The translations under genes were made by a program, and so were the position numbers. A model generated the notes under the pieces. That model saw nothing but the letters and a program-made list of their open reading frames with translations, was not told the DNA's origin and did not search any database. This document shows positions 631 through 38,447 of a DNA stretch of 48,287 bases, one piece after another (position 1 is the stretch's first letter; every line of letters starts with the position of its first letter). Source of the DNA: a virus (lineage: Duplodnaviria; Caudoviricetes); the IMG/VR virus record IMGVR_UViG_3300049896_000006, positions 1 through 48,287 of that record; one strand, given 5' to 3'.

Positions 631-1713
631 TCACCCCACCTCGGTACGCCCCTCACCGGGGGCCGCCGTGGGGGCCGCTGCGGGGTGGTGGCTGCGGGCC
701 TGATCGAGGGGGTCAGCGGGGGTGGGAACGATGGCCAGATAGGGGGGTGCGCCGGGGGTGTTGTCGGGCACCAATCGAGGGGGCATTACGGGGGTTTTTC
801 CGAGGTCTTCCGCGAGGTCCTCGACGTGCACTCCGGGGGGCGTGACCGGCTTCCCTTCCAGGCGGAATTTCATCTGCGGCCGGACCGTGATTCCGGCCTT
901 CCCCAGGAACTCGGTCATGCGCTTTCGATCCCAGCCTTCGAGGGGCTGCTTCTCGCGCATTTTTTCGAGGAGATGGTCGACTGTCGCGCCGCGTCCTTTC
1001 GCGTCGAGATGACCGGCCGCTCCGGCTGTTACTTCATGCTCGACGAACTGCCGGATAGCGGCGCGCTGCGCGGGCCACGGATCGCTTTCGGTGTCGGTTT
1101 TCTGGTCCTCCTCCCCCGCCCCTTTTTCTTGATCGTTCTCGGTCGTGTCGTCGTCCTCGGTGAGCGGCGCCCAGTACGCCGCCGTGAGGCACCAGGCGAC
1201 GATCAGGCCGGGGACGACCCCGACGGCGTAGGGGGCGACGAGGCGGGCGATGACCGGCCCGACGCTGCCGAGGGCGGCGAGGGCCATGGCGAGGATGACG
1301 GCGCCGAGGGCGAACTGTTCGGCGGCGCTGGCCGGGCCCCCTGTCCGGCCGGTCGCCTTCGGTGCAGGCTTCTGTTCCTTCTCCTCGTCGTCCTGGTCGT
1401 CGCTGTCGACGGGCCCCTTCGTCATGTCGATCTTGGGCGGCTTCATGACGGCGGGGGCGGGGGCTGCGCCGGCGGCCTTGCGCAGGGCCTGCCAGAGGCC
1501 GCGCAGGATCATCATCGTCAGGACCGGGCTGCCCGCGCGGACGCGGGCTCCCAGCTCGCGCAGCGGCAGGAGCAGCTCCTCGCGCGCGGTCAGCCGTGCA
1601 GGTTCCTTCTCGACCGGTACGGGCTCGGCGTCCGCGGGGCCCGGCAGGGGCGCGGTCGTGGCCGTGGGCTCGTCGGGTTCGGACGGGTCCGGCGTGGTGA
1701 GGTCGACGTGCAT
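631..1713 (-). CDS. Membrane protein with possible C-terminal winged-helix domain
   Basis: Two hydrophobic segments, acidic linkers, helical/basic C-terminal domain. Confidence 0.65.
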   Translation of the reverse strand: MHVDLTTPDPSEPDEPTATTAPLPGPADAEPVPVEKEPARLTAREELLLPLRELGARVRAGSPVLTMMILRGLWQALRKAAGAAPAPAVMKPPKIDMTKGPVDSDDQDDEEKEQKPAPKATGRTGGPASAAEQFALGAVILAMALAALGSVGPVIARLVAPYAVGVVPGLIVAWCLTAAYWAPLTEDDDTTENDQEKGAGEEDQKTDTESDPWPAQRAAIRQFVEHEVTAGAAGHLDAKGRGATVDHLLEKMREKQPLEGWDRKRMTEFLGKAGITVRPQMKFRLEGKPVTPPGVHVEDLAEDLGKTPVMPPRLVPDNTPGAPPYLAIVPTPADPLDQARSHHPAAAPTAAPGEGRTEVG

Positions 1714-1714
1714 C

Positions 1715-2185
1715 TCAGCCTCCCGACATCTTCGCGGCGATCATCCGGATGATGCTGACGGGGATGCCGGGCACGCCACCGGCCTGCCCGGCGAGGACGG
1801 CCCCCGAGATGCTGAACAGGGCGGGCCAGATGACCCGGCTCCCCCAGGGCCATGCCCAGGCGATGAGGAGCAGGGCGACCGCGGAGCCGCCGAGGCCGGG
1901 GTCGCCCAGGCCGAGGCCTTCGGTCAGTCCTTTGCCGATCTCCCCGGCGGAGTCGCCGAAGTCGGCCCAGGTCCCGCCTGCGCCGATCCACAGGGTGGCG
2001 GTGACGAAGCCCCATTTGAGGGCCTGGTCCTTGTTGCCGATCTTGATGCGGTCGCTGCCCCGCAGGCCCGCGATCAGGCCGATCGTGGACAGGAAGGCGA
2101 GGCCGGTGAAGGTGATGGGGCCGAGGAACTGCATGCCGTTGATGCCCGGGACATCGGCGGCGGCGAGGAACGTCGAGGGGATCAC
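1715..2185 (-). CDS. Gly-rich multi-pass membrane protein
   Basis: Start re-called at GTG 2185; several hydrophobic segments. Confidence 0.7.
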   Translation of the reverse strand: MIPSTFLAAADVPGINGMQFLGPITFTGLAFLSTIGLIAGLRGSDRIKIGNKDQALKWGFVTATLWIGAGGTWADFGDSAGEIGKGLTEGLGLGDPGLGGSAVALLLIAWAWPWGSRVIWPALFSISGAVLAGQAGGVPGIPVSIIRMIAAKMSGG

Positions 2186-2196
2186 GGGTGCGCCTT

Positions 2197-3105
2197 TCAG
2201 ACGACGGGAGTGCTGCCGTACGGGAGGCAGGCGAGGAGGGCGGAGGCGAGCGGGACACGGGCCATCCAGCGGGCGGTCCAGTGCCAGTGGCGGACGCGTC
2301 GGTCGATGAGCCACCACAGGCCGGCGCAGATGCCGCCCGCGGTGATGAGCAGGCTGATCTGGTCGGGGCCGAGGCCCCATTGCTGGCCGTAGTCGTTGAG
2401 GTAGCCGACGGGCAGGGGGGCGAAGCGGCGGCCCAGCTCGGCCGCGCAGACGGTGAGGATGACGCGGCTGATCGGCGGGGCCGGGAGGATCGTCTGCACG
2501 GCTCCGGTGCCGGCGACCTTCCAGGCGGCCCAGCCCGCGCCGACCGCGAGGACGAGGCCGAAGGTGCCGACGGCGGCGTGCTCGGCGACGGGCAGGTACG
2601 CGGCGACGACGTCGGTCAGGCCGAAGGCGTAGCCGATGGCGGCGGCGCTGCCGTTGAACGCCACCATCTGGATGCGCCGGTCCTTCATCGCGGAGTCCGC
2701 AGCGGCCTCCACCCGCTTCCGCGTGGCCGACTTGGGCCGGGTGCTGCGCTTGGCGTCCTTGGTGGTCTTCTTGACGGGCTTGCCGGGGACCGGGCCGCTG
2801 GTCGGCGTGGGCTCCTTCGTCTCGTCTTCGGTGGTCTCGTCGGTCTCGTCCTGGTCGTCGTCGGCGGGTGCGGCCGTCGGGCTCGGGGCGGTCTCCCTCA
2901 GGATCGGCCGGCCGACGACCCACCAGTCCGTGATCCGCTTCGGCGGGTCCTGGGGCATAGGTGACGGAACCGTCGTGGCGGCCGGGATCGGCACGGCCGG
3001 GCTCTCGTCGTCTGCGGGCCGTGGGTCGGGATGGCCGACCGGGCGCACGCCCAGGCCGCCCAGCATCTTCTGAGTGAGGCGCTCGCGCGCGTCGGGCGGC
3101 GTCAC
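2197..3105 (-). CDS. Multi-pass membrane protein with disordered N-terminus
   Basis: GTGA overlap with upstream stop; hydrophobic C-terminal half. Confidence 0.7.
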   Translation of the reverse strand: MTPPDARERLTQKMLGGLGVRPVGHPDPRPADDESPAVPIPAATTVPSPMPQDPPKRITDWWVVGRPILRETAPSPTAAPADDDQDETDETTEDETKEPTPTSGPVPGKPVKKTTKDAKRSTRPKSATRKRVEAAADSAMKDRRIQMVAFNGSAAAIGYAFGLTDVVAAYLPVAEHAAVGTFGLVLAVGAGWAAWKVAGTGAVQTILPAPPISRVILTVCAAELGRRFAPLPVGYLNDYGQQWGLGPDQISLLITAGGICAGLWWLIDRRVRHWHWTARWMARVPLASALLACLPYGSTPVV

Positions 3106-3296
3106 TTGCCCCACCCCGCCATCAGGAAGTTGCCGACGGTCGGCACGAGCTGGATGAGGGCGAGCTGAACGCAGCCGGCCACTAGGCCGAACACGAGCAG
3201 GCGCCGGGCGATTCGCCAGCCGCAGCCCCACGCGGTCAGGGGGATGAGGATGGCGAGGACGGCGAGGAGCACGAGGGCGAAGTCGACGACGGTCAT
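3102..3296 (-). CDS. Small two-TM protein
   Basis: MTVVDFALVLLAVLAILIP...; tight operon spacing. Confidence 0.65.
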   Translation of the reverse strand: MTVVDFALVLLAVLAILIPLTAWGCGWRIARRLLVFGLVAGCVQLALIQLVPTVGNFLMAGWGK

Positions 3297-3301
3297 GACG
3301 G

Positions 3302-4093
3302 TCAGCTCCCGGTGTAGGAGGGCATGAGGCGGGCGGCGAGGTCGACGAAGTGCGGGCCACGCTGACGCGGAAGGTGCTCGCGGTCGAGGGCTCGCAGGTA
3401 GTCGCAGGCTTCGGTGGCCGGGACGATGCGCACGCCGGCGACGCGGAGGCGCTCGCCGGGGGCAAGGACGTCGCCGACCATGAGGAGGACGGTCACGGCC
3501 TGGACGGACAGCAGCCTGTTGATCGTCTTCGTCTCGTACCGGACTCCGTCGAGCCAGTCCGTGATGTCGCGCTGGCCGCGCATGAGGCGGCGGCCGTCGG
3601 CGATCCACAGGCGGTAGCGGGCCTGAGCCGACCACCACTTCGGGTCCAGGTTGTAGACGACGCCGCGGGGCGAGATCGCCAGGATGTCGACGTTGGCGGT
3701 GCCGCGCGGGAACCGGCGGTCGTACAGGAAGATCCAGCCCTCAGCGTTGAGTGGGGCGAGGAAGGCGGCCGCTGCCTGCTCCCCCTTGCCGCCGGCCTCG
3801 CACCGGGACGCGAGCTGTTCGGCGCGGGTGCTGATCCCAACGGCGGTGAGTAGGCGGACCCAAGGGGTGCGCAGGGCGCGGGCGCGGGCGAGGGAGGAGG
3901 CGCCGGCCTGACCGGCTGCGCCGGTGCTCGAGGTCGTCCGCTGTCGCGGGACCTTCGGCAGTAGGCGGAGCAGCGGGGTGAAGCGGGCGCGCTGGGTGTA
4001 GGCGGCGGCCGCGACGGCGGCGTAGGCCAGGAGGCCGGGCAGGCCGCCCACCTGAAGTGCGACACCCGCGACGAAGAGGGCGAGGTAGGGCAT
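3302..4093 (-). CDS. NERD (nuclease-related domain) protein with N-terminal membrane anchor
   Basis: GGKGE...ANVDILAISPRGV..LDPKWW resembles the NERD PD-(D/E)xK pattern; hydrophobic N-terminus. Confidence 0.8.
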   Translation of the reverse strand: MPYLALFVAGVALQVGGLPGLLAYAAVAAAAYTQRARFTPLLRLLPKVPRQRTTSSTGAAGQAGASSLARARALRTPWVRLLTAVGISTRAEQLASRCEAGGKGEQAAAAFLAPLNAEGWIFLYDRRFPRGTANVDILAISPRGVVYNLDPKWWSAQARYRLWIADGRRLMRGQRDITDWLDGVRYETKTINRLLSVQAVTVLLMVGDVLAPGERLRVAGVRIVPATEACDYLRALDREHLPRQRGPHFVDLAARLMPSYTGS

Positions 4094-4156
4094 GGGGGCT
4101 CCTTTCGAGGGGGCGGCGATGATCCGGGATTCCGGCGGGGTGGGGGTCCTGTGTCG

Positions 4157-4258
4157 TCACCTGCCGGTGAGGAGTTGACCGACGGTGGTGATCAGTAGGG
4201 CGAGGGCGCAGAGGGCGACGGCGCAGACGGCGAGGGAGCGGAGACGCCGGCCGGTCAC
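4157..4258 (-). CDS. 33-aa single-TM peptide (not in ORF track)
   Basis: MTGRRLRSLAVCAVALCALALLITTVGQLLTGR read by hand. Confidence 0.45.
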   Translation of the reverse strand: MTGRRLRSLAVCAVALCALALLITTVGQLLTGR

Positions 4259-4295
4259 CGGGCGTCCCTGGGGTCGGTCAGTTGGGCGAGGTCGA

Positions 4296-5501
4296 TCACG
4301 ATGACTTCCTTCGGGGACGGGCGCGGTGCTTGGGGTTCTCCTCGCGCTGCCTCGCGCGGCGGACGTTGTCGGCGAGGTTCGTGCTGTCGCCGTGGGCCTG
4401 GCGCACGAGGTCGGTGAGGGCCGCGTCGCTGATGTCCGGGTCCGCGTTGAGGGCGTTGCGGATGGTGGCTGCGCGGCTGTCGCCGAACAGCTCGGTGACG
4501 TTCGCGGGCAGCTTGGGTGACGGCCGCTTCCCGGACGTGTCCGTGTCCTGTCCGGACGGGTCGGGGACTGCGGCCGGGTTGGGTGCTGTGGCCTGGGCGG
4601 ACGGCTGTCCGGACAGGGGCGGCACGAGGGTCTGGGCGGGGGTCTGGGCGGGCGCCTGTCCGGCGCTGTGTCCGGTCTGTCCGGCCGGCTGGACGGGCGG
4701 CTGGGGGACGGGCAGGACCGGCGGCACCGGGTCGGGGATGACCGGGCCGGGTGCGGGTGCGGCCGCTTGCATGACCGGAGTCGGGGCGGGCAGTGCCGTC
4801 GTGGTCTCGGCGCTGGTCATGATCGCGCCCGCGGCCTGGTACTCGCGGCCCCCGACGGCGCGGTGCTGCTCCGCGATCCGGTTGAGGGCGGCGATGCGGC
4901 GGGCGAGCTTCGCCTGTCCGGCCGCTTCCTCCGCCTGGTCCTGGACCCAGTTCGCGATGCCCGCGCGCAGCGGGACGTCCTGTGCGTAGATCAGCAGGGC
5001 CCACAGTCCTTTGGCGAGGAGGTCCAGGCAGGCGCCTACTCCGCCGGCCAGGTCCTGGCCGTGGTCGTGGCCGTAGGTGAAGACGGCGGCCATGCTGATC
5101 GCGAGGGCGATCCAGCCGCCGACTCGCGCCGGTACCGCGCGCTTCGGGTCGGTCTGTGACAGGACCCATTCCAGGCCGAGGCAGGCCATCCATGTCGCGG
5201 TGAAGACGACCCCTACGCCGTAGCTGATGACCGGGTGGAGGATCTCGGACAGTTGCCCGCCAACGCTCGCGGTGGTCCCGATCACGGCGAGGCCGGTGAT
5301 CCCGATGGCGAGGCCGGTGACGCCCCGGATGATGACCCGGTCCCAGTCCCTGGGCGGCTGCGCCACGTACACCGTGTACGGCACATCCCGCGTCGAGGAT
5401 CGGCCGTCGATCACGGTCGTCTCCTGCCGGAACCTCGTCTCGGCCTTGTAGCGCACGCCCGGGATCCGCGGCTGCTGCTCGTCGCTGGTGGTGTCGTTCA
5501 C
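4296..5501 (-). CDS. Spd-like membrane protein: TM bundle, coiled coil, Pro-rich linker, C-terminal helical putative DNA-binding domain
   Basis: About 4-5 TM segments, helical AEEAAGQAKLARR stretch, PAP/QP linker, basic C-terminus; GAAAGG RBS before GTG 5501. Confidence 0.75.
   Translation of the reverse strand: MNDTTSDEQQPRIPGVRYKAETRFRQETTVIDGRSSTRDVPYTVYVAQPPRDWDRVIIRGVTGLAIGITGLAVIGTTASVGGQLSEILHPVISYGVGVVFTATWMACLGLEWVLSQTDPKRAVPARVGGWIALAISMAAVFTYGHDHGQDLAGGVGACLDLLAKGLWALLIYAQDVPLRAGIANWVQDQAEEAAGQAKLARRIAALNRIAEQHRAVGGREYQAAGAIMTSAETTTALPAPTPVMQAAAPAPGPVIPDPVPPVLPVPQPPVQPAGQTGHSAGQAPAQTPAQTLVPPLSGQPSAQATAPNPAAVPDPSGQDTDTSGKRPSPKLPANVTELFGDSRAATIRNALNADPDISDAALTDLVRQAHGDSTNLADNVRRARQREENPKHRARPRRKSS
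4530..4685. repeat. TGTCCGGACA-family cluster A
   Basis: CTGTCCGGACAG 4605-4616, TGTCCGGAC 4549, further TGTCCGG at 4657, 4669, 4678. Confidence 0.7.
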
Positions 5502-5590
5502 TGGTGTGCCTTTCGTGTCACAGAGCGATGGGCCGACCCGGGGTTCGTGAAGGAGGGGCACGAACCCGGGCCGGCCCGGTCTGGGATGGA

Positions 5591-11423: not shown

Positions 11424-11840
11424 TCACTGTGCGGCCGCCGGGATGTCCATGCGGGGGACCTGGTCGAGGTACTTGGCGTACACGCTCTCGACGGCTTCAC
11501 GGACGGCGGCGGTCAGGACGCGGCGGAAGGCGGGTTCGAGGTGGCTGCCGGCGGCGATCTGTACGGCGATGTCCTCCCCGCGGGGGGTGCGCCAGAGGTG
11601 GGCGTGGATGGGTTCGAGGTCTGCGGCGCCCAGCTCGATCGCCCAGAGGGAGACGTCGGCTGCGCCCCGGACGAGGGCGATGACGCGGCGGGTGATCTCG
11701 TCGTGGTCCTTGCCGCCGGTGACCTGTGTGCAGGCGGGAAGGGTGCTGAGGAATCCGGCGACGTCGGCGGGGTGGGGGTGGCCGGCGAGTTGCTGGTGGA
11801 GGGCGGCGGCCGCCTGGTGGAGGTCGGTGGTGGTGGTCAT
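11424..11840 (-). CDS. Hypothetical protein
   Basis: MTTTTDLHQ...; ATGA coupling, AGGAG RBS. Confidence 0.6.
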   Translation of the reverse strand: MTTTTDLHQAAAALHQQLAGHPHPADVAGFLSTLPACTQVTGGKDHDEITRRVIALVRGAADVSLWAIELGAADLEPIHAHLWRTPRGEDIAVQIAAGSHLEPAFRRVLTAAVREAVESVYAKYLDQVPRMDIPAAAQ

Positions 11841-12457
11841 GGCTGCAGCTCCTGCGGGGTGGGGCGGTGGATGGCGGCCGCGAGGTCGACAGCGGCCTGG
11901 CTGAGGGAGTCCTGTACGAGGCCGCCCTCCTGGTGGACGGATTCGTATGCCTCGTGCAGGACGGCGGTGACGGCCCGGCCGAAGTCGGGGTTGACGGTGG
12001 CGATGTACGCGGCGTCGGCGGCGGCCTGCGGATGCCCGGCCGGGCCGGTGAGGGCGACGCAGTCGGTAGCGGTGGTGCCGCCTGCGACGAGTTCGGCGCC
12101 GGGTGCGGTGCCCTGGCTGACGGTCCAGCGGATACCGGTGGGCGGCCGGTAGGTCCACCGGCCGGGGGTGGCCCTGTTGACGAGGGCGAGGAGCGTGCTC
12201 TCGGCGGCCTGCAGCAGTTCGTCCGGGCGCGGCTGCGGGAGGGTGAGGCCGGCCGGGCCGTGGGCGAGGATGACGCGGGGGCGGCCGCGGACGCCGGAAC
12301 AGGCGGCGCAGTAGTCGGTGCCGCCGTTGGCGCGCCAGCCGTACGCCGCGGCGATCGTGCGGGCCTCGCCGATCGTCAGGGCGTCGGTCATGAGGGACTG
12401 GGCGCATGCCGATAAGCCGTGCACGGTGTTGCAGTGGAGCGAGATGCGGACGCTCAT
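11837..12457 (-). CDS. Zn-finger plus Ead/Ea22-like protein; contains a TTA codon
   Basis: ATPGRW...DAAYIATVNP motif; codon 15 is TTA (12413-12415). Confidence 0.65.
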   Translation of the reverse strand: MSVRISLHCNTVHGLSACAQSLMTDALTIGEARTIAAAYGWRANGGTDYCAACSGVRGRPRVILAHGPAGLTLPQPRPDELLQAAESTLLALVNRATPGRWTYRPPTGIRWTVSQGTAPGAELVAGGTTATDCVALTGPAGHPQAAADAAYIATVNPDFGRAVTAVLHEAYESVHQEGGLVQDSLSQAAVDLAAAIHRPTPQELQP

Positions 12458-20718: not shown

Positions 20719-20948
20719 GTGGTGGGGAGCCTTTCGTTCTCGTAGGCGGCCGCGTAGTCCGCGACCTGGTCGGCGATGGCCGCCTCGGCGCAGACCTTGT
20801 GGGCGGGCTTGCCCTTGCTGTCGAGCAGGCGTGTCATCGCCTCGCAGTACCGGCACCTGCGGTCCACACCGCCCCAGTGCCAGGAACTGGACCAGTCGAG
20901 GAGACCGGCCGCGGGCGGCACCGGCTTCTGCGGCTCACGCCGCGGCAC
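20715..20948 (-). CDS. Small Zn-finger protein
   Basis: CRYC...HKVC. Confidence 0.6.
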   Translation of the reverse strand: MPRREPQKPVPPAAGLLDWSSSWHWGGVDRRCRYCEAMTRLLDSKGKPAHKVCAEAAIADQVADYAAAYENERLPTT

Positions 20949-21237
20949 GGGGACCCTCCCGGGTCCGTCTCTGCGCCATGGCCTCCCGCCGCTCGTCCGG
21001 GGTGAGGCCGCCCCAGATACCGTCTCGCTCGCCGTGGTCGAGGGCGTGCGACAGACAGTCGCCGACCACCGGGCACTGCCGGCAGACAGCCTTGGCTGCG
21101 GCGACGGTGAACAGATCGGCGCCGGTGTACCCCTGCGGATGGAACGTGTCGGCCGGCTCGTAGCCGCGACAAGCGGCGTCGTCCGCCCAGTACCGGGGGC
21201 GTTCCACGGTGTCCGGGGCGTGGTGGCTGTTGCGCAT
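20935..21237 (-). CDS. whiB: WhiB-family (Wbl) Fe-S transcription factor
   Basis: AAC...AKAVCRQCPVVGDC..AL...GIWGGLTPDERR; four Cys and the G(V/I)WGG turn. Confidence 0.92.
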   Translation of the reverse strand: MRNSHHAPDTVERPRYWADDAACRGYEPADTFHPQGYTGADLFTVAAAKAVCRQCPVVGDCLSHALDHGERDGIWGGLTPDERREAMAQRRTREGPRAAA

Positions 21238-27964: not shown

Positions 27965-28264
27965 TTAGCCGGCGCGCTTGGTGCGCTTGGCCCCGGAGGG
28001 CCTCACGGACCGCAGGCGGGTGACAGCGGGGGTCTCGCCCGCAAGCTCCGCCGTGTCGGCGGGAGCGGCGGGGACGACGGTGAAAAGGCGCATCGCGATG
28101 CGCAGCTCACAGGGGCACAGGACGCGCTGATCCCCGAACTTCTGGTGAGGGATCTTGCGGAGGTTCTCTTTCAGCAGCCGCTCGCGGCAGCCGAGTCGGG
28201 CCGCTGCCTCCTCCGTGCTGATGTTCTGCACGTCCTCGCACGAGCAGTGCCGCCGCGCGTTCAC
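27965..28264 (-). CDS. Excisionase-like HTH protein
   Basis: STEEAAARLGCRERLL....IPHQKFG; directly after the Cro-like gene. Confidence 0.65.
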   Translation of the reverse strand: MNARRHCSCEDVQNISTEEAAARLGCRERLLKENLRKIPHQKFGDQRVLCPCELRIAMRLFTVVPAAPADTAELAGETPAVTRLRSVRPSGAKRTKRAG

Positions 28265-28494
28265 GACGCGGCCTCCTGCGGCTCGTCGGTGTCGAGGATG
28301 AGGCGGTCCATCGGCGAGCCGTACGCCCTCGCGAGGCGGCGAACGGTCGCCAGCCTCGGCGCCGTCCGGCCCGCCATGTTCCGCGAGAGCGTGGACCGGT
28401 CGACGCCGGCGTGTGCCGCGATCTCCTGGTCCGTCTCGTGGCCGCGCTGGGCGGCCAGTTCTCGAAGGACGTCCGCGGCCAATTTCAGCGACAC
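28261..28494 (-). CDS. Cro-like XRE HTH regulator
   Basis: QEIAAHAGVDRSTLSRNMAGRTAP; divergent from repressor. Confidence 0.85.
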   Translation of the reverse strand: MSLKLAADVLRELAAQRGHETDQEIAAHAGVDRSTLSRNMAGRTAPRLATVRRLARAYGSPMDRLILDTDEPQEAAS

Positions 28495-28511
28495 GGCGAC
28501 CCCTCCCTTCG

Positions 28512-28696
28512 TGTGCAGCAGTGCACATGATGTGCATGCATGCACACCATAGATCATGTGCATGCATGCACACCATCAAAGACACAAGGGGATCGATTAG
28601 TGTGACTTACTGGGTGCCAAACGGCGCACACAGGGCTCGCTACCAGCAGTGATTCACTACACGCGCCCCCACCTGCGGGTAGTGCACGCATGCACA
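28512..28696. promoter_or_regulatory. Immunity operators TGTGCA-N4-TGCACA (four copies)
   Basis: Perfect TGTGCATGCATGCACA at 28531 and 28557; variants at 28512 and 28681. Confidence 0.85.
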
Positions 28697-28780
28697 TCGC
28701 CGCGGGGCATCCAGAGGGCGCTAGCCTCGCTGCATGCGGAGCAAGGAATCCCCCGATCGGACCTGGTGACGGAGGTGCAA

Positions 28781-29254
28781 ATGAACTCACCCGCGCCAGA
28801 GGCCGACCAGACCACGGCCGAGCGATTCGGCGAGGTCATCCATCACCTCGCCAGGCAGGCCGGCTACGACATGGACCGCGGTGGCACCGGACGCGCACAG
28901 CTCGCCGAACAGACGGGCGCGACCGTCCAGACCGTCGGCCGATGGCTGAAAGGTGAAGTCCTCCCCGGGCTGACCCAGTACCAGCACATCGCCAAGGCCC
29001 TGAATGTCACGGTCATAGACCTCCTTGAGGCGGCCGGGATCATCCCCCAAACAGAGCACAACCGTGGCGCAAATCAGCCTGTACTCTCACGACTTCAGCC
29101 ACCCGTCACACCAGCGACGGCCGCGGATCTGCTCGGGGTTACACACCCGACCATCCGCAACATGCTGCTCCCGTCGATGGAACAGGCACAGCGGCTACAG
29201 GAAGATTTCGATCGTCACGGCGCAGGCGGGGAGGCTGCCGTAGCAAGGGGGTAA
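28781..29254 (+). CDS. Immunity repressor (XRE HTH)
   Basis: AQLAEQTGATVQTVGRWLKGEVLP; GGAGG RBS before ATG 28781. Confidence 0.85.
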   Translation: MNSPAPEADQTTAERFGEVIHHLARQAGYDMDRGGTGRAQLAEQTGATVQTVGRWLKGEVLPGLTQYQHIAKALNVTVIDLLEAAGIIPQTEHNRGANQPVLSRLQPPVTPATAADLLGVTHPTIRNMLLPSMEQAQRLQEDFDRHGAGGEAAVARG

Positions 29255-29259
29255 CCCGC

Positions 29260-29859
29260 ATGACGCAGCGATTCCCACACGGCCGTACGGCTGTGGCCGT
29301 CACCGGCGTACTCGCCGGCGGCGTGATCGTCGCAGCACTACCGCAAGATCACAGACCCAACGACGTCGACCCTACCGGCATCATGGTGGCCGTCTCGACC
29401 GCCGTAGCCCTCGTCGCGATCAAACGATGGCTCAGGCAGCACGAAGACAGGACCAAGGCCGACGTCCGCTCACTCGCTGAGCACCACACCCTCAGGTCTG
29501 AGGAACTGGACCGGAGGGAACGAGCACTCGCCACCCGCGAGACGATCGCCGCGCGCCGTGAGGCCACCCACGCCCTACGCATGCGCAGCCTGGCCAGCAC
29601 CCTCGACACCGCCCGCGCCCAGCTCGCCGAGAAGACCACCGCGCTGGAGACGCTGGAAGCGGCATACAACGTGACCAGGAAGGACTACAACGCGTTGGTC
29701 GAGCACGTCTTGCGCGACGGCTACGACCGGTTCGTCACCGACACTGAGGGCCCGCACAAGCCGATCCAGCCCGACCTGCCGCGCCAGGCCGACGAGCACC
29801 GGCGCGGCACCGCCCCCGTCACCATCCTCAGGTCACGGGAGCACCACGGCTCAGCCTGA
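29260..29859 (+). CDS. Two-TM coiled-coil protein downstream of repressor
   Basis: Two hydrophobic segments then long helical region; 5 nt after repressor stop. Confidence 0.7.
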   Translation: MTQRFPHGRTAVAVTGVLAGGVIVAALPQDHRPNDVDPTGIMVAVSTAVALVAIKRWLRQHEDRTKADVRSLAEHHTLRSEELDRRERALATRETIAARREATHALRMRSLASTLDTARAQLAEKTTALETLEAAYNVTRKDYNALVEHVLRDGYDRFVTDTEGPHKPIQPDLPRQADEHRRGTAPVTILRSREHHGSA

Positions 29860-31677
29860 ACCGCCCGCTCCCTCCGCAGCGTCCACCCCTGTCCCGCCCC
29901 TGACCCCGGCGAGGGCAGGGTTCATCTCGCAGATCTGCAGCGCGATGATGCACGCGTTTCCGTACTCGCGGATCACGTCCGACCGGGAGAAGCCCCACGC
30001 CTCCACCTCGGTCTCTACGCCGTCCTCACGCCACGCCACCCGCGACAGGGCAGGCTCCTCGGTGTAGCCAGCTTCCCACTCCCACACCGTCCGCACCGTC
30101 GGCTCGTGCTGGTCGCCCCGGCCTCCGTCGGCGAGGACACCGTCAGGCCCGTACACCGCCGGCCCGATCGCCCAGATCTGCACCCGCTCAGCCGCCTCGC
30201 GCCGCACGTCCTTCTCACCGTTGCCGTGCTGCCGCACCCACCAGTCGACCGTCCACGTCTCCCGCTCGGGGTCACTGCCCCGGTCGAGCGCCCACTGCTG
30301 CGCCACGGCGTCCCGGTCGGCGACCTTCCACCAGCCCTGTACGGTCCCGTCCGGCAGGTGCATCACGTGGACCCGCCGGCCCCGCTGCTGGTCCTCGTCG
30401 GGCCGCTCACCGTCCGGGACGTCGTCCCACAGCTCATCCTCGACGAGCGGGCCGCGTAGCGAGTCGTCGATGACCTTCATCGCGTCGTCGTCCGCCTCGG
30501 GCAGCAAGTGTCCGTAGGTGTCGGACGTGGTCTTGATCGACTCGTGTCCGAGCCGCACCTTCACGTACTCCATGCCGCGCCCCTGCGACAGCAGCACTGC
30601 GGCGTGGCTGTGCCTGAGGTCGTGGAAGGTCGGGCACTTCCACTCCGAGACCAGGCCGGCGACCTTTGCCTTCTCGACGGCCCGCATCCACCGGTCGTAG
30701 AACGTGCTGTAGGGCAGCCGCTCGCCGTCGCCGCTGTGGAAGATCAGGGCGTTCTGGCGGGCCTTGCTGCCCGGCTTGACGCCCTGCTCGATCAGGTCCT
30801 CCCACGCGAGCGGCGACACCCGTAGCGACCGCCTGGAGGCTTTCGTCTTCGGCTTGCCGAGGTAGTAGCCGCGTTCCTTGTTCCGCTTCCACGCCCGCGT
30901 GACCCTGATCCGAGGGTGGCCGGCCTGGCTGGTCACAGCGTGCCGGTGAGCGAGCGCCGTGACCTCGCCCCACCGCATCCCCGTGGCGTATGTGAACCGG
31001 ACCAGCCGCTGATCCTCAGGCCGGGCCAGGAAGCTGACGATGCCCTCGACCTCGTCCGGCTCCAGGAAGTTGATGTCCTCGCCGTCGTCGTCCTCCACCC
31101 CGTCGTCGTCGGTCCGGGGCAGCGCGACGACCTTGCATGGGTTGCGGTCCCTCAGCGGCGGTTCATGCTGCACGGCCTCTTTCAGGATGCTCGACAGCAG
31201 CCCGTGCAGGTTCTTGATCGTCTTGGGAGACATGAGCTTGCGCACCGAGCCGCGCCACACGAACGTGGCCGCGAGCATGTTGACCCACTGCTGGACCGTC
31301 CGTTTGCAGAAGTGATCCGTCGACCGGATGTCGCAGTTCCCGAACGTCGGCAGGATGTACGCCGCCAGGTCGCGCCGGCAGTCGTCCCGGTAGCGCTCCT
31401 CGATCCCGGTCCGGTTGTCGATGCACTCCATGGCGAAGGTCCGAAACAGGAAGGCCTCCTCGCCCGGGTCCTCGCTGATGTAGCCCTTGCCCTTGACCCA
31501 GCCGATCGGCCAGTCCTGCCCGGCGGCATTGACGGCGTCGCAGAAGATCTCGGCCGATTCCTCGTCGTCGAACCGCTCAGTCTGCTGGGGCGCCTTTCTG
31601 GACCCGCCGAGGCGCCATTTCACCTGGTAGCTGGTGATCTCTTCGGCCTTGTTTCTCCGGGGTGTGACGTACGCCAT
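29851..31677 (-). CDS. int: Tyrosine integrase with long C-terminal extension
   Basis: TGMRWGE, KTK, FHDLRHSH, LGHES, TYGH; TACCTT -10 6 nt before ATG 31677 suggests leaderless start. Confidence 0.95.
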   Translation of the reverse strand: MAYVTPRRNKAEEITSYQVKWRLGGSRKAPQQTERFDDEESAEIFCDAVNAAGQDWPIGWVKGKGYISEDPGEEAFLFRTFAMECIDNRTGIEERYRDDCRRDLAAYILPTFGNCDIRSTDHFCKRTVQQWVNMLAATFVWRGSVRKLMSPKTIKNLHGLLSSILKEAVQHEPPLRDRNPCKVVALPRTDDDGVEDDDGEDINFLEPDEVEGIVSFLARPEDQRLVRFTYATGMRWGEVTALAHRHAVTSQAGHPRIRVTRAWKRNKERGYYLGKPKTKASRRSLRVSPLAWEDLIEQGVKPGSKARQNALIFHSGDGERLPYSTFYDRWMRAVEKAKVAGLVSEWKCPTFHDLRHSHAAVLLSQGRGMEYVKVRLGHESIKTTSDTYGHLLPEADDDAMKVIDDSLRGPLVEDELWDDVPDGERPDEDQQRGRRVHVMHLPDGTVQGWWKVADRDAVAQQWALDRGSDPERETWTVDWWVRQHGNGEKDVRREAAERVQIWAIGPAVYGPDGVLADGGRGDQHEPTVRTVWEWEAGYTEEPALSRVAWREDGVETEVEAWGFSRSDVIREYGNACIIALQICEMNPALAGVRGGTGVDAAEGAGGSG

Positions 31678-31695
31678 GACGGCAAGGTAGGGCCT

Positions 31696-31934
31696 CGTGC
31701 TCCCACCGTGCTCCCAAGGTGCAGCAAAGGAATAGGCGCCTACCCGCTGTCGCAGCAGGTCAGACGCCATACCAGGAGATGTGCCCGGAACCGGACTTGA
31801 ACCCTTACCGCTCGGGCCGCTGACCTGCGACGACACACTGACCTGGTACGGAGCCTCCCGGATTCCCCCGGATTCCTGCACACTCACCCGCATCCGGCCC
31901 CCGGTGCTCTCACGATTGGGAGCACCGGGAGCAC
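31696..31934. other. attP: tRNA-derived core flanked by arm-type repeats
   Basis: CGTGCTCCCA at 31696 and 31707; GTGCTCTCA 31904; inverted TGGGAGCAC 31917 and CGGGAGCAC 31926; GCAGGTCAG 31755 / CTGACCTGC 31820 symmetric about the core. Confidence 0.8.
31781..31803 (-). other. att core = 3' fragment of a tRNA, probably tRNA-Leu(UAA) bldA
   Basis: GGTTCAAGTCCGGTTCCGGGCAC = T-loop plus acceptor 3' strand; 5' part of the tRNA absent; bldA match is from memory. Confidence 0.75.
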
Positions 31935-32021
31935 ACCCGACAGGACGAGATCTCTCAACAGATGTCCCCAGGAAATCGTGGGCGTGCATCCATGAGGTGC
32001 CCGTCTCGCGGGTAACGGAAA

Positions 32022-32052
32022 GTGGGCCCGGCAGTAAGGATGCCGGGCCCAC
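32022..32052. terminator. Stem-loop beside attP
   Basis: GTGGGCCCGGCA / TGCCGGGCCCAC 12-bp stem. Confidence 0.6.
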
Positions 32053-32279
32053 CTCTGCGCGGCCCCAGTCCCGCTTATGCGGAGCAAGGAGTGGAGCCGC
32101 GAGCCGCCGGTCTCCCCCAGGAGCACAGCGGCGCTGATGGCGGGAACCAGTCGGCTGGTCCCGCGCTGATAGCCATTCTCACGCCGGGGCGCAGACCAGG
32201 GGGGCGAAATGCCAAAATGCGCCGCGAACGTGTGATCCAACCCGATCCTGTGCGAACCGGCCGACGCGGTCACACACGC

Positions 32280-32378: not shown

Positions 32379-33281
32379 TCAGGTCGTGTACTCGCGATCC
32401 CTCAGGGCGGCCTCACGGACGAGTGGGGCGAGCAACTCCGCGTCGAGGCCGCCGAGGTAGGCGACCAGGCGCGCGCGCGTCTGGTCGAGGTGACCGGCCA
32501 GGCCGTCACCGAGGAGGCCGGAGGGCCGCAGCACCCGCCGGAACACCGGATCGTCCAGCGCGCCGGCAAGGAGCTGCTCAGCCAGCCAGTACGGCGTGCG
32601 CTCCCGGACAGCGAACGTCAGGTGCACGCTGTCCCCGCCGTCCGGCGGCACGGCTGGGTTGTGGACCCAGCCGCGCGGCAGGAGCAGCGTCTGCCCCGGC
32701 TCCAGGTCGACCACCATGTCCGGGCCGGCCGCCTCCCACCCGGGGAGCCACTCCTTCTGCCACACCCGCCACGACTCGGCGAACTCGCGCATCGGCGCGT
32801 CGACGACCGGCCGCCACAGCTCCCACCGCTTCACGCCCGCGATCTGGACGACGACGGCCAGTTGCTGATCCCAGTGGTGGGTGAGGCCCTGGCAGCCCGC
32901 GGGGGTGAGGAAGGCGTGCACGTACGTCGAATAGCCGGTCTCCTGCTGGATGCCACGGCACGCCTGGTACAGGACGGGGATGACGCGCTGTGCGTGGCCC
33001 AGCCGCACGGTGAAGCCAGCCTCGTACAGGCCGCGGAGCTTCTTCCCGCACGTACGCCCAGCCTCCGTGAACGCGGCCTGCGTGATCGACGGGTGGGGCG
33101 TCTTCACCACGGCGATCTCCGGGGCCGGGTAGCACCCCGAGTCGATGTACTCGTTCAGCAGGTCCGCGGTGATGACGCTGTCCACAGCGCAGCCGCCCCG
33201 CCGGTAGACCACCGGCTCGGTCGGCCACTGCGCCATGAGGTCGTCAACGCCCTGAGCGGGCAGCAGCTGGTGCAGCGACAT
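32379..33281 (-). CDS. JmjC/cupin 2OG-Fe(II) oxygenase (YcfD/RoxA-like)
   Basis: FLTP...GLTHHWD..VVQIAGVKRW...LLLPRGWVH gives HxD...H triad; AAGGAG RBS. Confidence 0.9.
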   Translation of the reverse strand: MSLHQLLPAQGVDDLMAQWPTEPVVYRRGGCAVDSVITADLLNEYIDSGCYPAPEIAVVKTPHPSITQAAFTEAGRTCGKKLRGLYEAGFTVRLGHAQRVIPVLYQACRGIQQETGYSTYVHAFLTPAGCQGLTHHWDQQLAVVVQIAGVKRWELWRPVVDAPMREFAESWRVWQKEWLPGWEAAGPDMVVDLEPGQTLLLPRGWVHNPAVPPDGGDSVHLTFAVRERTPYWLAEQLLAGALDDPVFRRVLRPSGLLGDGLAGHLDQTRARLVAYLGGLDAELLAPLVREAALRDREYTT

Positions 33282-33307
33282 CGCTTCTCCTTCACGCGGA
33301 GAGGGGA

Positions 33308-33745
33308 TCAGGGTCGAGGGCAGGCAAGTTCTGGAAGGTGGCGGTTCACGCAGGCGACGACGGAAAAGGACGCCAGCGCCCTGGACTGTGTCCAGTAGCC
33401 CCACGACACGTCCACACCGTGACCGAGGGCCTCGACGGCGTACGCGGCCTTCGCCTCCAGGTCGACGTACGCCTGCTTACCGTCCTCGCCCTCCATCGGG
33501 GGGTTGGCCGCGTACTGCTTCTCCATCCAGCGGACGGCCTCGCCCGGGTCCGTCCACGTCCCCGCGACCTGGTTGCGGCGCATCAGCCAGTGGCCGGTGC
33601 GCACCGGCGGCATCTTCGACCTGAGGAACGCCTCGGTGTGCGGGTCGCCGGGCGTCGTACCGGGGCGGCGCATAGCCTCCCGGGCGTACTCCGCACCGCT
33701 GCCGACCCAGGGACCGAAACCGTGCAAGTGACCTGACCAGTCCAC
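33308..33745 (-). CDS. Trp-rich hypothetical protein
   Basis: 145-aa ORF, AAAGGTGA RBS. Confidence 0.7.
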   Translation of the reverse strand: MDWSGHLHGFGPWVGSGAEYAREAMRRPGTTPGDPHTEAFLRSKMPPVRTGHWLMRRNQVAGTWTDPGEAVRWMEKQYAANPPMEGEDGKQAYVDLEAKAAYAVEALGHGVDVSWGYWTQSRALASFSVVACVNRHLPELACPRP

Positions 33746-33768
33746 GTGTTCACCTTTCGAGGGAGCGA

Positions 33769-33804
33769 GAGCGGGCCCCGGCCGCCGTCAGCCGGGGCCC
33801 GCTC
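33769..33804 (-). terminator. Stem-loop after DUF397 gene
   Basis: GAGCGGGCCCCGGC / GCCGGGGCCCGCTC 14-bp stem. Confidence 0.6.
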
Positions 33805-33832
33805 AGAGGTCCTGCGGGGTCAGAGCGTAGAG

Positions 33833-34063
33833 CTACGCACTGACAACGCCCGGCCCGTCGGTGAAGAAGGCGCGCAGCTCGTCACCCGTGAAGCGCAGCA
33901 CCATGCCGGCGCCGCCGTCCTTGCTGTCGCGGAGCGCGAACGCGTCGACAGCGCCGGGGATGCGCGCCACCTCGACGCACGTCTCGTTGTCGCCGCCCTG
34001 GTTGCCGCCGCACATCGAGGTGTACTCGGCGCCGTCCAGCGACAGCTCGTAAAGGTTTTCCAC
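33833..34063 (-). CDS. DUF397 (BldB/Scr2-like) small protein
   Basis: CVEVA...LRDSK...LRFT..EL.AF; AAGGAG RBS before GTG 34063. Confidence 0.85.
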   Translation of the reverse strand: MENLYELSLDGAEYTSMCGGNQGGDNETCVEVARIPGAVDAFALRDSKDGGAGMVLRFTGDELRAFFTDGPGVVSA

Positions 34064-34185
34064 GGAACACTCCTTCGTGTCAGGCCCCGGGAACCAGCCC
34101 CCGGGACTGTCCGAACCCCCCGGGCGGAGGGCTGGGCCCGCCCACACCCCGGGAACGGGGAGGACACCGGAGTGTGGGCGGGAGT

Positions 34186-34272
34186 TCATCGGTGGAGCAG
34201 GGAGTAACCGACGGACCCCATCCAGGCGGCCACCGACAGCGCCAGGAGCGCCTGTTGAGCGGCTGTCCTCAC
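34186..34272 (-). CDS. 28-aa hydrophobic peptide (not in ORF track)
   Basis: MRTAAQQALLALSVAAWMGSVGYSLLHR; GTGA overlap with HATPase stop. Confidence 0.4.
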   Translation of the reverse strand: MRTAAQQALLALSVAAWMGSVGYSLLHR

Positions 34273-34682
34273 GGGACGACGTCCAGGTGTGCCCAGACCC
34301 GCTTGCCCCAGTGCAGGCGGTCTGTGCCCCACTCCACGGCGAGCGTGTCGACGAGGACCAGGCCCCGCCCGTGCTCCATGCCGGCCGCCCGGCCAGCGAG
34401 GAGGGCGGGCATGATCCTGCTGCAGTCGGTCACCGCGATCCGTACGCCCGCCGGGCGGCGCGTCACGGTCAGCCGCAGCGACGTCCCCCTCGCGTGCACG
34501 ACCGCGTTCGTGACCAGCTCCGAGCAGACCAGGGCCGCATCGTCCACCAGGACGTCGAGGCTCCAGCAGGCGAGCGCCTCGACGGTCAGCCGCCGGGCCT
34601 TCGGTACGGCCGCCCGCTCACGGCCGAGGGACTCGGTGTAGGCGGGAGCCCCGATCCCGACAGCCCTCGCGGCCAGCATCAT
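34269..34682 (-). CDS. HATPase_c anti-sigma-like ATP-binding protein (RsbW/AbaA-like)
   Basis: SELVTNAVVHA, IAVTD, EHGRGLVLV, GKRVWA. Confidence 0.9.
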   Translation of the reverse strand: MMLAARAVGIGAPAYTESLGRERAAVPKARRLTVEALACWSLDVLVDDAALVCSELVTNAVVHARGTSLRLTVTRRPAGVRIAVTDCSRIMPALLAGRAAGMEHGRGLVLVDTLAVEWGTDRLHWGKRVWAHLDVVP

Positions 34683-35239
34683 GAGCCCCCTCCCCACTCT
34701 TCCCGCGCCGCACGGACCCGGCCGATCTCCGCGACCATGGCCAGCCGACCGGGCTGACACAGATCGCCCGGCCCATGCATCGCCACCGACCAGTAGGAGA
34801 GACCCACACCGGGCGCGAACAGGGCGGGCGAGGGCACGACGAGGGCGGACTGCCGGCCGAGGAACGTCGTGCTCTCCGCGGCCCAGTCGTGCTCAGCGCT
34901 CGCCGGGACCAGCGCGTAGTAGCGGCCTTCCCTCACCTCATGGAAGACGCCGCCGCCCTCAAGCGACTCGTCGAGGTAGACGGCGACCTTCACCGGGTTG
35001 CTCGTGCCGGCGGCCGCATGGACCAGCCAGTCGGGCAGGCAGACCGCCGAGAACAGCGTGCCGCAGTTGAGCAGGGCGCGGCCGGTGTCAACCCAGTTCT
35101 CACGCGCCTGCTCCAGATCGTGAGCGGCCTGCAGCAGCCATGTCCCGGCCGCCGCCGCCCGTTCCTCCGGGCTCACGTCCCGTGGTGCGGGCGGATTCCC
35201 GCCCACCGTTAGTCGCGGCTCGCGCGCTGATGTCGCCAT
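34679..35239 (-). CDS. Hypothetical protein, possibly primase-polymerase-like fold
   Basis: FSAVCLP...GGVFH...YYALVP...LVVPSP; ATGA-coupled to HATPase. Confidence 0.65.
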   Translation of the reverse strand: MATSAREPRLTVGGNPPAPRDVSPEERAAAAGTWLLQAAHDLEQARENWVDTGRALLNCGTLFSAVCLPDWLVHAAAGTSNPVKVAVYLDESLEGGGVFHEVREGRYYALVPASAEHDWAAESTTFLGRQSALVVPSPALFAPGVGLSYWSVAMHGPGDLCQPGRLAMVAEIGRVRAAREEWGGGS

Positions 35240-35372
35240 GGTGAAGCCCCCAACCGGCTCTGACGTTTGCAGTGATGGCGAGTACAACGGGCATTACCCT
35301 GAGTCAACTAGTACCGGCACAGGGCAACCTGTATAACCCGGTATAACGCCCTGGTTGGGAGGGTGGAGCACC

Positions 35373-36770
35373 ATGACAGATCACACTCGCGCGCGTAACG
35401 AGAAGCTGCACGAGGCCCTGAAGCAGGCCGATCTGACGTACGAACAGCTCGCGTCGATGGTCCGTCAGATCGCAGCCGGATGCGGCACCGAGCTGCGCAC
35501 GAACAGGTCCGCTGTCGGGTACTGGATAAGGGGCAACGACCCCGAGCCCGTGACGGCGACGTACATTGCTGAGGCGATCTCTCGCAGACTCGGCCGTCAC
35601 CTCACACCCAGCGACCTGGGGTTCAGGACTCCTGAACCGGACCGGGCCCGAGAGGCCGAGGTTGGGTTGGCCATCGGACCCGATCCAGTGGCCATGCTAC
35701 GGCGCATCGGGGAGGCAGACATCAACCGCAGGAAGATTTTGACAGGGGCGGCCTACAGCGTCGCCGCGGCGGCCCTGCCGCTGGGACGCGCCGAGGCCGC
35801 TGAGGCCCAGGCCAGAGCAACGACCGCCGCAGGACGCCTAGTCGGCGAGACAGACGTCGCCACCGTCCGGTCCATGCTGCGTGCCTTCACCGCGATCGAC
35901 GAAAGCCAGGGCGGCCGGCACGGCCGGTCAGCCGTCGTGCAGTACCTCCGCAGCGACGTCGCCGACCTCACCCGGGGTCGGTTCCTCAAAGAGTCCACCC
36001 GCGCCGACGCCCTCACCGCCGCCGCCGCGCTCACCTTCCTCGCCGGATGGAAGGCATACGACGCCGGCGAACACGGACTCGCCCAGCGCTACTACCTCCA
36101 GGCCCTCGGCCTGACCCGCGAGGCCGACCACCCACTGCACCAGGCATGGGTCCTGCGGATCATGGCGCACAACGGCATGGACGTCGACCAGCCCGCGCAC
36201 ACCCTCGACCTCGCGGACGCCGCTCTAGACCTCGCAAAGGACCGCGCGGACCCAGGCATGCTGTCCATGTTCGTCATCTGCCGCGCGCGAGCGCTCAGCT
36301 ACGCAGGCCGGGGCGCCGAGGCGGTCAGCGAGATCCGCCGCGCGCAGGACCTCGCAACGCGCGACGCCACCGGAGAGATCCCGTACTGGACGGCCCTCTT
36401 CGGACCGCCCCGCGCCGCCGTCTCGTCCCACGCGGCGAAGGTCTTCCGCACCCTGAGGGACCACGCCAACGCAGAGAAGCAGTACGGGGCGGCCGGCCGT
36501 GGCTACAGCCGCGCCGACGGCGGCCTCTCCCGCATCACCGCACTGTCCCTCGCCTCACAGGGCAAGGAACAGGCCGCACAGGGCCACCTGGAGCAGGCAT
36601 GCGGCACCTGGGACCAGGCCCTCACGTTCTTCGAGGGCGTCTACTCCGACCGCGCCGTCAAGCAGGTCGCAGGCATCCGCCGACAACTCGCCACGTTCGA
36701 GCGGCGAGGCGTGCGCGCTGCAGCGGAACTCGACGAGCGGGCCCGCACCTGGCAGTCCTGCTACGCCTGA
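35373..36770 (+). CDS. NsdA-like XRE-HTH + TPR-like transcriptional regulator
   Basis: RNEKL..AL...LASMV...SAVGYWIRG..P; INRRKIL; AGWKAYDAGEHGLAQRYYLQAL. Confidence 0.8.
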   Translation: MTDHTRARNEKLHEALKQADLTYEQLASMVRQIAAGCGTELRTNRSAVGYWIRGNDPEPVTATYIAEAISRRLGRHLTPSDLGFRTPEPDRAREAEVGLAIGPDPVAMLRRIGEADINRRKILTGAAYSVAAAALPLGRAEAAEAQARATTAAGRLVGETDVATVRSMLRAFTAIDESQGGRHGRSAVVQYLRSDVADLTRGRFLKESTRADALTAAAALTFLAGWKAYDAGEHGLAQRYYLQALGLTREADHPLHQAWVLRIMAHNGMDVDQPAHTLDLADAALDLAKDRADPGMLSMFVICRARALSYAGRGAEAVSEIRRAQDLATRDATGEIPYWTALFGPPRAAVSSHAAKVFRTLRDHANAEKQYGAAGRGYSRADGGLSRITALSLASQGKEQAAQGHLEQACGTWDQALTFFEGVYSDRAVKQVAGIRRQLATFERRGVRAAAELDERARTWQSCYA

Positions 36771-38051: not shown

Positions 38052-38447
38052 TCAGACCCCGGCAGGCGGGGGCGGATGCGGGGGTTCGCCGTCGCGCTGC
38101 CGGCACTGGTCGTCATCCGCCGGCAGCATCCGGGCAAGCTGACAGTTCACCAGGTCGACCGCGTCTCTCAGGGACTCCCCACTGTTCGGCTGCAACTCAT
38201 GGTGTACGCCCTGCATACGGGCCTCAATGCCCTGCACGCGAGCCAGGACGCCGGGCCGGGCCGGGACCCCCGGACGGCCCTCCTGTCCGTACCAGTCGTC
38301 AAAGAACTGGTTGACCCGCCGACCGATCCGGACGGCCGCGCGCACGAACCGCCACAGGCCCGTGCCCAGGCTGATGACCACCGTCGCGACGGTCGCCCAC
38401 ACGAGGGCGGCGTCGAGGGCCGGGATCCCGGTGGGGTCGGGCATCAC
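38052..38447 (-). CDS. Single-TM lysis-cassette protein
   Basis: TM then DDWYG..RPGVPARPGV...ELQPNSGESLRDAV; GTGA-coupled to holin. Confidence 0.7.
   Translation of the reverse strand: MMPDPTGIPALDAALVWATVATVVISLGTGLWRFVRAAVRIGRRVNQFFDDWYGQEGRPGVPARPGVLARVQGIEARMQGVHHELQPNSGESLRDAVDLVNCQLARMLPADDDQCRQRDGEPPHPPPPAGV

What the first reader, a model, noticed from the sequence alone, without database searches (positions are those of the whole stretch)
31696..31934. Intact attP whose core matches the 3' end of bldA tRNA-Leu(UAA)
Seen: minus-strand GGTTCAAGTCCGGTTCCGGGCAC with arm repeats on both sides and phage genes on both flanks, so this is attP and the DNA is free or excised. The acceptor strand TCCGGGC needs a tRNA starting GCCCGGA, which as I recall is Streptomyces bldA. 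Known: bldA is the only tRNA reading UUA and gates sporulation and antibiotic genes. Inference: integration replaces the bldA 3' end and trailer and could alter development.
Basis: partly seen in the sequence, partly recalled or inferred. Interest (0 to 1): 0.8.

Follow-up and report, generated by a model that had tools for sequence, protein, structure and literature searches.

The report
Phages integrating into Streptomyces bldA tRNA
A soil phage carries an intact attachment site copying the end of bldA, the rare-codon tRNA gene that times Streptomyces sporulation and antibiotic production; related prophages sit in that gene and usually rebuild it exactly, so an effect on development is likely small, except perhaps where they leave a changed base.

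Summary
Confirmed. Window 31781-31803 (-) is an attP core flanked by arm repeats, 104 bp before a tyrosine integrase. It equals positions 52-74 of Streptomyces tRNA-Leu(UAA), bldA. Related integrases lie just downstream of a bldA gene in 41 of 78 genome loci. Twelve elements between the two core copies carry this phage's minor tail gene; 11 are 82-126 kb. Chymera, the published resident prophage of S. venezuelae, has the same type of site.

The developmental claim is weakly supported. In 30 of 37 attL/attR pairs the rebuilt tRNA (positions 54-73) is identical; only the trailer changes. In 7 it is altered (pair 49:65, base 57, once the discriminator). Six of those 7 genomes carry a short-armed UUA tRNA of likely element origin, against 3 of the 30 unaltered (related phages, not independent). 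This window holds no such tRNA.

Ten literature searches found no description of bldA as attB, only one uncommented supplementary row. This scan noted the target before on other DNA (e1-5921600). The mechanism is known; the target is little noticed and testable in a model strain.

The parts
31781..31803 (-). attP common core = tRNA-Leu(UAA) positions 52-74 (T-loop, 3' T-stem with U65 at 31790, 3' acceptor strand, discriminator A73 at 31782); no CCA encoded
31821..31828 (-). left half of the core-bracketing inverted repeat (GCAGGTCA); a looser form is at 29 of 32 attR and 0 of 32 attL; likely an accessory-protein site (inferred)
31755..31762 (-). right half of the core-bracketing inverted repeat (TGACCTGC); a looser form is at 32 of 32 attL and 3 of 32 attR
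31735..31768 (-). hairpin in the phage trailer that would follow bldA after integration (-26.9 kcal/mol, z -2.96); possible terminator; not conserved (Chymera z +0.33)
31697..31715 (-). P' arm: two direct GGGAGCAC repeats, predicted integrase arm sites, over the -35 region of the int promoter; tandem arm motif in 46 of 56 related sites
31918..31934 (+). P arm: two arm repeats in inverted orientation; arm-type repeats 231-257 nt before the int start in 6 of the 7 free attP forms listed
31684..31689 (-). TAnnnT -10-like hexamer 6 nt before the int ATG; predicted leaderless int promoter (50 of 56 related loci, Shine-Dalgarno-like motif in 1 of 56)
29851..31677 (-). tyrosine integrase, 608 aa, PF00589; R235, K277, H352, R355, H378 and Y388 invariant in 36 homologues; extra C-terminal domain (aa ~428-595) of no known family
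27965..28264 (-). excisionase (PHROG 1840, E 7e-11)
28261..29254 (.). divergent Cro-like and repressor HTH genes (immunity switch)
32020..32055 (-). strong hairpin (z -6.4) between the cargo genes and attP; likely terminator

Best explanation
This is the intact attachment site of a temperate Streptomyces phage whose tyrosine integrase is predicted to insert the genome into the T-loop of bldA, as related prophages are seen to have done, with the phage's copy of the tRNA 3' end rebuilding the gene so that UUA reading likely continues. Shown: the core, the arms, the integrase, and attL/attR pairs in relatives. Inferred steps follow. Strand exchange falls between positions 54 and 65, likely the 7-base T-loop. 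Everything 3' of it comes from the phage, so this phage (U65) would leave an A49 host unchanged and give a G49 host a G49:U65 wobble. CCA is added after trimming, as in most of these genes. The trailer becomes phage DNA. int is likely expressed from its own leaderless promoter under the arm sites rather than from the bldA promoter. bldA is likely used because it is a conserved single-copy tRNA gene, and not in order to switch development.
For: 41 of 78 GTDB loci with a related integrase have tRNA-Leu(TAA) just upstream on the same strand, mostly 98-106 nt away, and 3 more have the core. 37 attL/attR pairs were compared; 30 are identical over positions 54-73. In all 6 pairs that differ at 65, attR keeps the Watson-Crick partner of the host's base 49. 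In G021 and G023 identity starts at T54. Together these bound the crossover. The core pattern occurs once in 274 of 301 Streptomyces genomes, and 29 of 148 listed genes carry this exact 23-mer with A49 (hand count). The window's minor tail gene lies between the two core copies in 12 genomes. Chymera's attP is split at the core in G068, with tRNA-Leu(TAA) at attL and identical cores. CCA is not encoded at either att site in 18 of 32 pairs.
Against: No lysogen of this exact phage was found. The closest integrases (65-86% identity, P0002-P0011) have no site data, and those with mapped sites are mostly 48-58% identical. 7 of 37 pairs are not restored exactly, and one lysogen (G025) has lost the 5' part of bldA at attL. 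A nested subclade has moved to a terminator hairpin, so integrase kinship alone does not fix the target; here the window's own core decides it. No expression or recombination data exist.
Confidence: 0.85

Rival explanations
1. Integration tunes bldA. The swapped 3' strand or trailer changes the amount or activity of the UUA tRNA, and so shifts sporulation or antibiotic output in some lysogens, with an element-borne short-armed UUA tRNA covering the damage.
For: Non-Watson-Crick 49:65 pairs occur in 5 of 41 attL tRNAs against 1 of 140 listed single-copy genes (Fisher p 0.002, background hand-counted from the first 150 listed matches). One lysogen has discriminator A73 changed to G (L026). G49:U65 binds EF-Tu about 0.5 kcal/mol tighter than G49:C65 in E. 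coli and yeast tRNAs (PMC3239215 Table 2). Short-armed UAA tRNA is present in 6 of 7 altered against 3 of 30 unaltered genomes, and in 5 of 6 against 1 of 8 within the large-prophage family.
Against: The genomes are related: about 3-4 integrase lineages, so the p values overstate the case. ARAGORN was run on only part of the unaltered set, so 3 of 30 may be low. G:U also occurs with no element in view (G205). Trailer folding does not differ (mean -17.0 vs -20.2 kcal/mol, p 0.09; terminator-like hairpins 16 vs 12 of 37). This window has no such tRNA. No phenotype data exist.
Confidence: 0.2
2. The phage uses bldA to read the host's developmental state: readthrough from the late-rising bldA transcript drives int, or key phage genes need UUA decoding.
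For: int lies about 100 nt downstream of bldA on the same strand in lysogens. Chymera's trailer has no strong hairpin. UUA-dependent control is proposed for phage Hau3 terminase (PMC10732093 passages).
Against: int has its own -10-like element before the ATG in 50 of 56 loci. The window's trailer folds into a terminator-like hairpin. Only 1 of 74 predicted window genes has a TTA codon. TTA is in 3 of 79 integrase frames extracted, some of them broken.
Confidence: 0.1
3. The DNA is not free phage but the junction between two tandem prophage copies, or a collapsed assembly.
For: Tandem junctions occur at bldA in relatives (L020/L099; G043, G044). The record is linear and 52% complete.
Against: No host-joined contig or loose end at the core is listed in either run (5 loose ends were not shown). 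Six other free-form att sites of this clade share the layout.
Confidence: 0.07

Closest known systems
Streptomyces phage Chymera (KU958700), resident prophage of S. venezuelae (PMC10117723 passage)
   Same: Integrase 52% identical over aa 1-409. Same attP layout and bldA-type core with U65. Integrated at tRNA-Leu(TAA) in G068.
   Different: Chymera is 34.7 kb with a 428-aa integrase and no C-terminal domain. The window belongs to a family of 82-126 kb prophages with integrases of about 600 aa. The passages read do not name Chymera's target.
tRNA-targeting Streptomyces elements: phages VWB and RP3 (tRNA-Arg; PMC8724576 table); pSAM2 and SLP1 (tRNA genes; PMC2440964 listing)
   Same: Site-specific integration into a tRNA gene; duplication of the 3' end restores it (the general rule is recalled).
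   Different: The target is the single UUA-reading tRNA, a developmental gene. None of the integrases in the table passage read uses it.
Bacillus SPbeta / skin-type prophages that interrupt a sporulation gene (SPbeta cited in PMC10117723; mechanism recalled)
   Same: The prophage sits in a gene needed for development.
   Different: Those elements break the gene and must excise. Here the gene is rebuilt on insertion (30 of 37 pairs identical), so no excision switch is needed.
Proteobacterial prophages at tRNA-Leu(TAA)
   Same: The same 3' motif is duplicated at prophage ends (L002/L005, L003/L008).
   Different: Their integrases are distant (25% identity where detected), their duplication starts near the anticodon loop, and TTA is not known to be regulatory there (recalled).

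Membership tests
Tyrosine integrase (lambda-Int-like) | Catalytic R-K-H-R-H/W-Y residues in a PF00589 domain | tested here: met
   PF00589 E 2e-22; R235, K277, H352, R355, H378, Y388 invariant in 36 homologues
Tyrosine integrase (lambda-Int-like) | attP with a central core and arm-type sites on both sides | tested here: met
   arms partition to attL and attR in lysogens
Tyrosine integrase (lambda-Int-like) | Recombination activity and arm-site binding | not testable with these tools
   needs an integration assay
tRNA-3'-end-targeting integrative element | attP duplicates the tRNA 3' end and restores the gene at attL | tested here: met
   full tRNA-Leu(TAA) at attL in 41 loci; 30 of 37 pairs identical over positions 54-73
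tRNA-3'-end-targeting integrative element | Crossover in the T-loop | tested here: met
   identity starts at G52 or T54 and position 65 follows the phage; the exact bonds were not mapped
bldA as attB | Core matches tRNA-Leu(UAA) better than any other host site | tested here: met
   single match in 274 of 301 genomes; other sites at 2-3 mismatches in 5 genomes; 0 mismatches only to tRNA-Leu(TAA) among collected tRNAs
bldA as attB | A lysogen of this very phage at bldA | tested here: inconclusive
   none found; only relatives
Developmentally excised gene-interrupting prophage (SPbeta/skin type) | Integration inactivates the target gene | tested here: not met
   gene rebuilt; exceptions are single-base changes in 7 of 37 and one deletion in G025
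Temperate tailed phage | Tail, lysis, repressor, excisionase and integrase genes | tested here: met
   head and terminase genes are not in the 52%-complete record

The most novel reading that the evidence does not exclude
A family of large Streptomyces prophages edits the host's developmental tRNA on entry (49:65 wobble or mismatch, even the leucine discriminator), and the members that damage it bring their own short-armed UUA tRNA. Control of UUA decoding, and so the timing of sporulation and antibiotic genes, would pass from the host promoter to the prophage. The main model strain for Streptomyces development would have been studied all along with a prophage-made bldA end.
Probability: 0.2. 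Interest if true: 0.8.

Novelty: new variant of a known kind. Interest (0 to 1): 0.5.

Why it matters
bldA decides when TTA-containing developmental and antibiotic genes are translated. Elements sit in it in up to about 4% of Streptomyces species representatives (13 of 300 have a second copy of the 3' end; 8 of these were inspected, and one is a second whole gene). They include Chymera, reported as resident in S. venezuelae, so curing or swapping it is a ready test of whether a prophage alters UUA decoding. The int-attP pair is also a candidate integration vector with a site present in nearly every Streptomyces genome. If integration is neutral, as most pairs suggest, the finding is a new address for a textbook mechanism.

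Tried and rejected
The single-protein scan of viral contigs found nothing; the alignment did. ARAGORN's tRNA-Gln at 38246-38334 was rejected: it lies inside a holin-like reading frame and Rfam finds nothing. The 733-aa ORF from 32052 was rejected as the integrase start, because homologues align from 31677. The sigma-70 scan found no promoter or minus-strand terminator near attP; it is ill suited to Streptomyces. No TTA enrichment was seen. Trailer folding showed no difference. No RNA holder was listed. The C-terminal domain matched nothing clearly: ESM Atlas had no usable hit; Foldseek PDB and BFVD had none at E<=0.001; VIA-align best was Z 5.1, rmsd 3.4 over 68 residues to Tic22. This does not show a new fold. 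The careful tree did not finish, so the quick tree was used, with broken integrases left out. Two of 34 pairs were dropped (a tandem junction; two whole bldA genes). A strict pattern for the short tRNA hit 1 of 301 genomes; it is too narrow to give a background rate, as it missed G321. Literature searches (one search was for EF-Tu) gave no paper describing bldA as an attachment site. Passages read without such a statement: PMC4705527, PMC10023795, PMC10117723, PMC10732093, PMC7460540, PMC9513070, PMC12924846, PMC8724576, PMC8653842, PMC13350457, PMC1934918, PMC10126417. The PMC10023795 supplement (cut when stored) has one uncommented row with tRNA-Leu(taa) beside a S. griseofuscus prophage. 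Subscription journals are not covered.

Full report
Observation. The minus-strand 23-mer is at 31781-31803 and is unique in the window (0.01 expected by chance). It lies 104 bp before the ATG of a 608-aa tyrosine integrase (29851-31677). Two arm-type octamers lie on each side in opposite orientations, and an 8-bp inverted pair brackets the core. Beyond int come repressor, Cro-like and excisionase genes. On the other side, about 6 kb of cargo precedes the lysis and tail genes. The record is a linear IMG/VR virus contig, 52% complete. A short contig of a second soil study also spans the core. An attP in unintegrated DNA is the simplest reading; a tandem-prophage junction cannot be excluded.

Target. 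An alignment of 36 homologues fetched 78 GTDB loci. In 41, a full tRNA-Leu(TAA) ends just upstream of int on the same strand. In 3 more only the core is present. Thirteen belong to a hairpin-site group, 16 distant ones (36-42% identity) sit at His, Met or Ser tRNAs, 3 are an Embleya-type group and 2 are unassigned. In 44 genomes searched, 37 have two or more copies of the core. The second copy has the left inverted-repeat motif and host DNA behind it, as an attR should. In an even sample of 301 Streptomyces genomes the core pattern occurs once in 274, twice or more in 14 (one is the seed) and not at all in 13. That this tRNA is bldA, the sole efficient UUA reader, is stated in PMC1934918 and PMC8724576 (passages).

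Family. The window's minor tail protein hits 17 of 57 genomes. In 12 the hit lies between the two core copies on one contig, and 11 of these elements are 82-126 kb. A second group of 35-51 kb prophages has integrases of 408-431 aa. Chymera is one: its attP has a bldA-type core. G068 carries Chymera DNA at 100% identity, split at the core over 34.8 kb, with tRNA-Leu(TAA) at attL. PMC10117723 calls Chymera the integrated prophage of S. venezuelae and has no mention of bldA in its main text (passages). I therefore infer that this model strain's bldA ends in prophage DNA.

What integration does to the tRNA. Among 37 attL/attR pairs, positions 54-73 are identical in 30. Seven differ: position 65 in 6, position 57 in 2, position 73 in 1. 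In all six position-65 cases attR holds the Watson-Crick partner of the host's base 49, so the crossover is 5' of 65. In two genomes identity begins at T54. The result is five G:U wobbles and one A:C mismatch. Such pairs are rare otherwise: 1 of 140 listed single-copy genes against 5 of 41 attL genes (hand count of the first 150 of 298 matches). The one background case has no element in view. This phage has U65. It matches 29 of 148 listed genes exactly and would make G49:U65 in the commoner G49 type. That change is worth about 0.5 kcal/mol of EF-Tu binding in other tRNAs (PMC3239215, Table 2 passage). The trailer is always replaced, with a median of 3 identical bases after A73. It is no less structured on average, and this phage's trailer forms a terminator-like hairpin.

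A lead. An earlier scan note (e1-5921600) reported a large prophage in bldA with its own short-armed UUA tRNA. A pattern hit 8 of 56 genomes, and ARAGORN on 20 fetched element regions added G007. The tRNAs are 76-77 nt with a C3:G70 pair and A73, so they lack the alanine mark (the identity rule is recalled). Six of 7 genomes with altered bldA carry one, against 3 of 30 unaltered (p 0.0002). Within the large-prophage family it is 5 of 6 against 1 of 8 (p 0.026). The cases fall in about 3-4 related lineages, and the unaltered set was searched less thoroughly, so this is a hypothesis: a spare UUA tRNA relaxes selection for exact repair. The window has none in the segment where relatives carry it. 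That would fit a host that this phage leaves unchanged.

int expression. TAnnnT lies 6-8 nt before the int ATG in 50 of 56 loci, and a Shine-Dalgarno-like motif in 1. The tandem arm sites sit just upstream. I infer a leaderless transcript and autorepression by arm-bound integrase, so int need not depend on the bldA promoter. TTA codons are nearly absent (1 of 74 predicted genes).

Integrase tail. Residues ~428-595 fold confidently (pLDDT 91) and have no Pfam family. Homologues occur alone (150-175 aa) and fused to an unrelated SAM-type integrase, P0140. No structural match was clear. Short integrases use the same site without it, so it is not needed for bldA targeting; an accessory regulatory role is a guess.

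Verdict. The feature is real and the target is correct. The mechanism is the known tRNA-restoring integration. The target was not described in the papers I could search (one uncommented supplementary row), and this scan met it before on other DNA. Interest is moderate, because a model strain makes the effect on development directly testable.

Noticed in passing
window 29854-30405 (-), integrase aa ~428-595: Well-folded domain of no known family, also found stand-alone and fused to an unrelated integrase class (P0140); goes mostly with the large prophages.
   Followed up: partly
L028, L029, L030, L031, L037, L042, L043, L047, L057, L066, L073, L079, L085 (about 5865-5915 in L028); free form L176: A subclade nested among bldA integrases (SH-aLRT 100, quick tree; 9 of the 13 were in the tree) has moved to a terminator-like hairpin after an aldehyde dehydrogenase-like gene (named by eye). 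The hairpin shares an 8-base stretch with the right half of the bldA core.
   Followed up: partly
L153:12898-12974, L154:3619-3694, L263-L270, L274:7358-7433: Short-armed (76-77 nt) UAA-anticodon tRNAs in bldA-site elements, enriched where the rebuilt bldA is altered.
   Followed up: partly
L052:5780-6003 (G025): A 71-nt deletion removes the 5' part of bldA at attL of a 116-kb element, and no bldA motif is found elsewhere in that draft genome: a possible natural bldA null, or an assembly error.
   Followed up: partly
L026:5874-5900 (G008): The rebuilt bldA has G instead of A at the discriminator position 73; the genome has one bldA motif and a short-armed UAA tRNA.
   Followed up: partly
L164 (G225 C2); L039: Second whole bldA-type genes, on a 399-kb contig and on a 3-kb contig next to an integrase.
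   Followed up: no
G043, G044 (L132-L137); L020/L099: Tandem or stacked elements at bldA.
   Followed up: no
L072, L074, L076, L188: Embleya-type integrases with both core-bracketing motifs and a tRNA-like T-arm sequence on the opposite strand, inside host genomes.
   Followed up: no
window 32379-36770: Cargo block next to attP: JmjC oxygenase, DUF397, HATPase_c_2 protein and a 465-aa XRE-like regulator; parts recur in related prophages such as L284.
   Followed up: no
window 20935-21237 (-): WhiB-like regulator.
   Followed up: no
window 11837-12457 (-): The only predicted gene with a TTA codon (codon 15).
   Followed up: no
window 38246-38334 (-): ARAGORN tRNA-Gln call inside a holin-like gene; likely false.
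   Followed up: yes
window 631-5561 (-): Membrane-protein genes resembling plasmid spread loci; already noted by the scan (e1-10024440).
   Followed up: no
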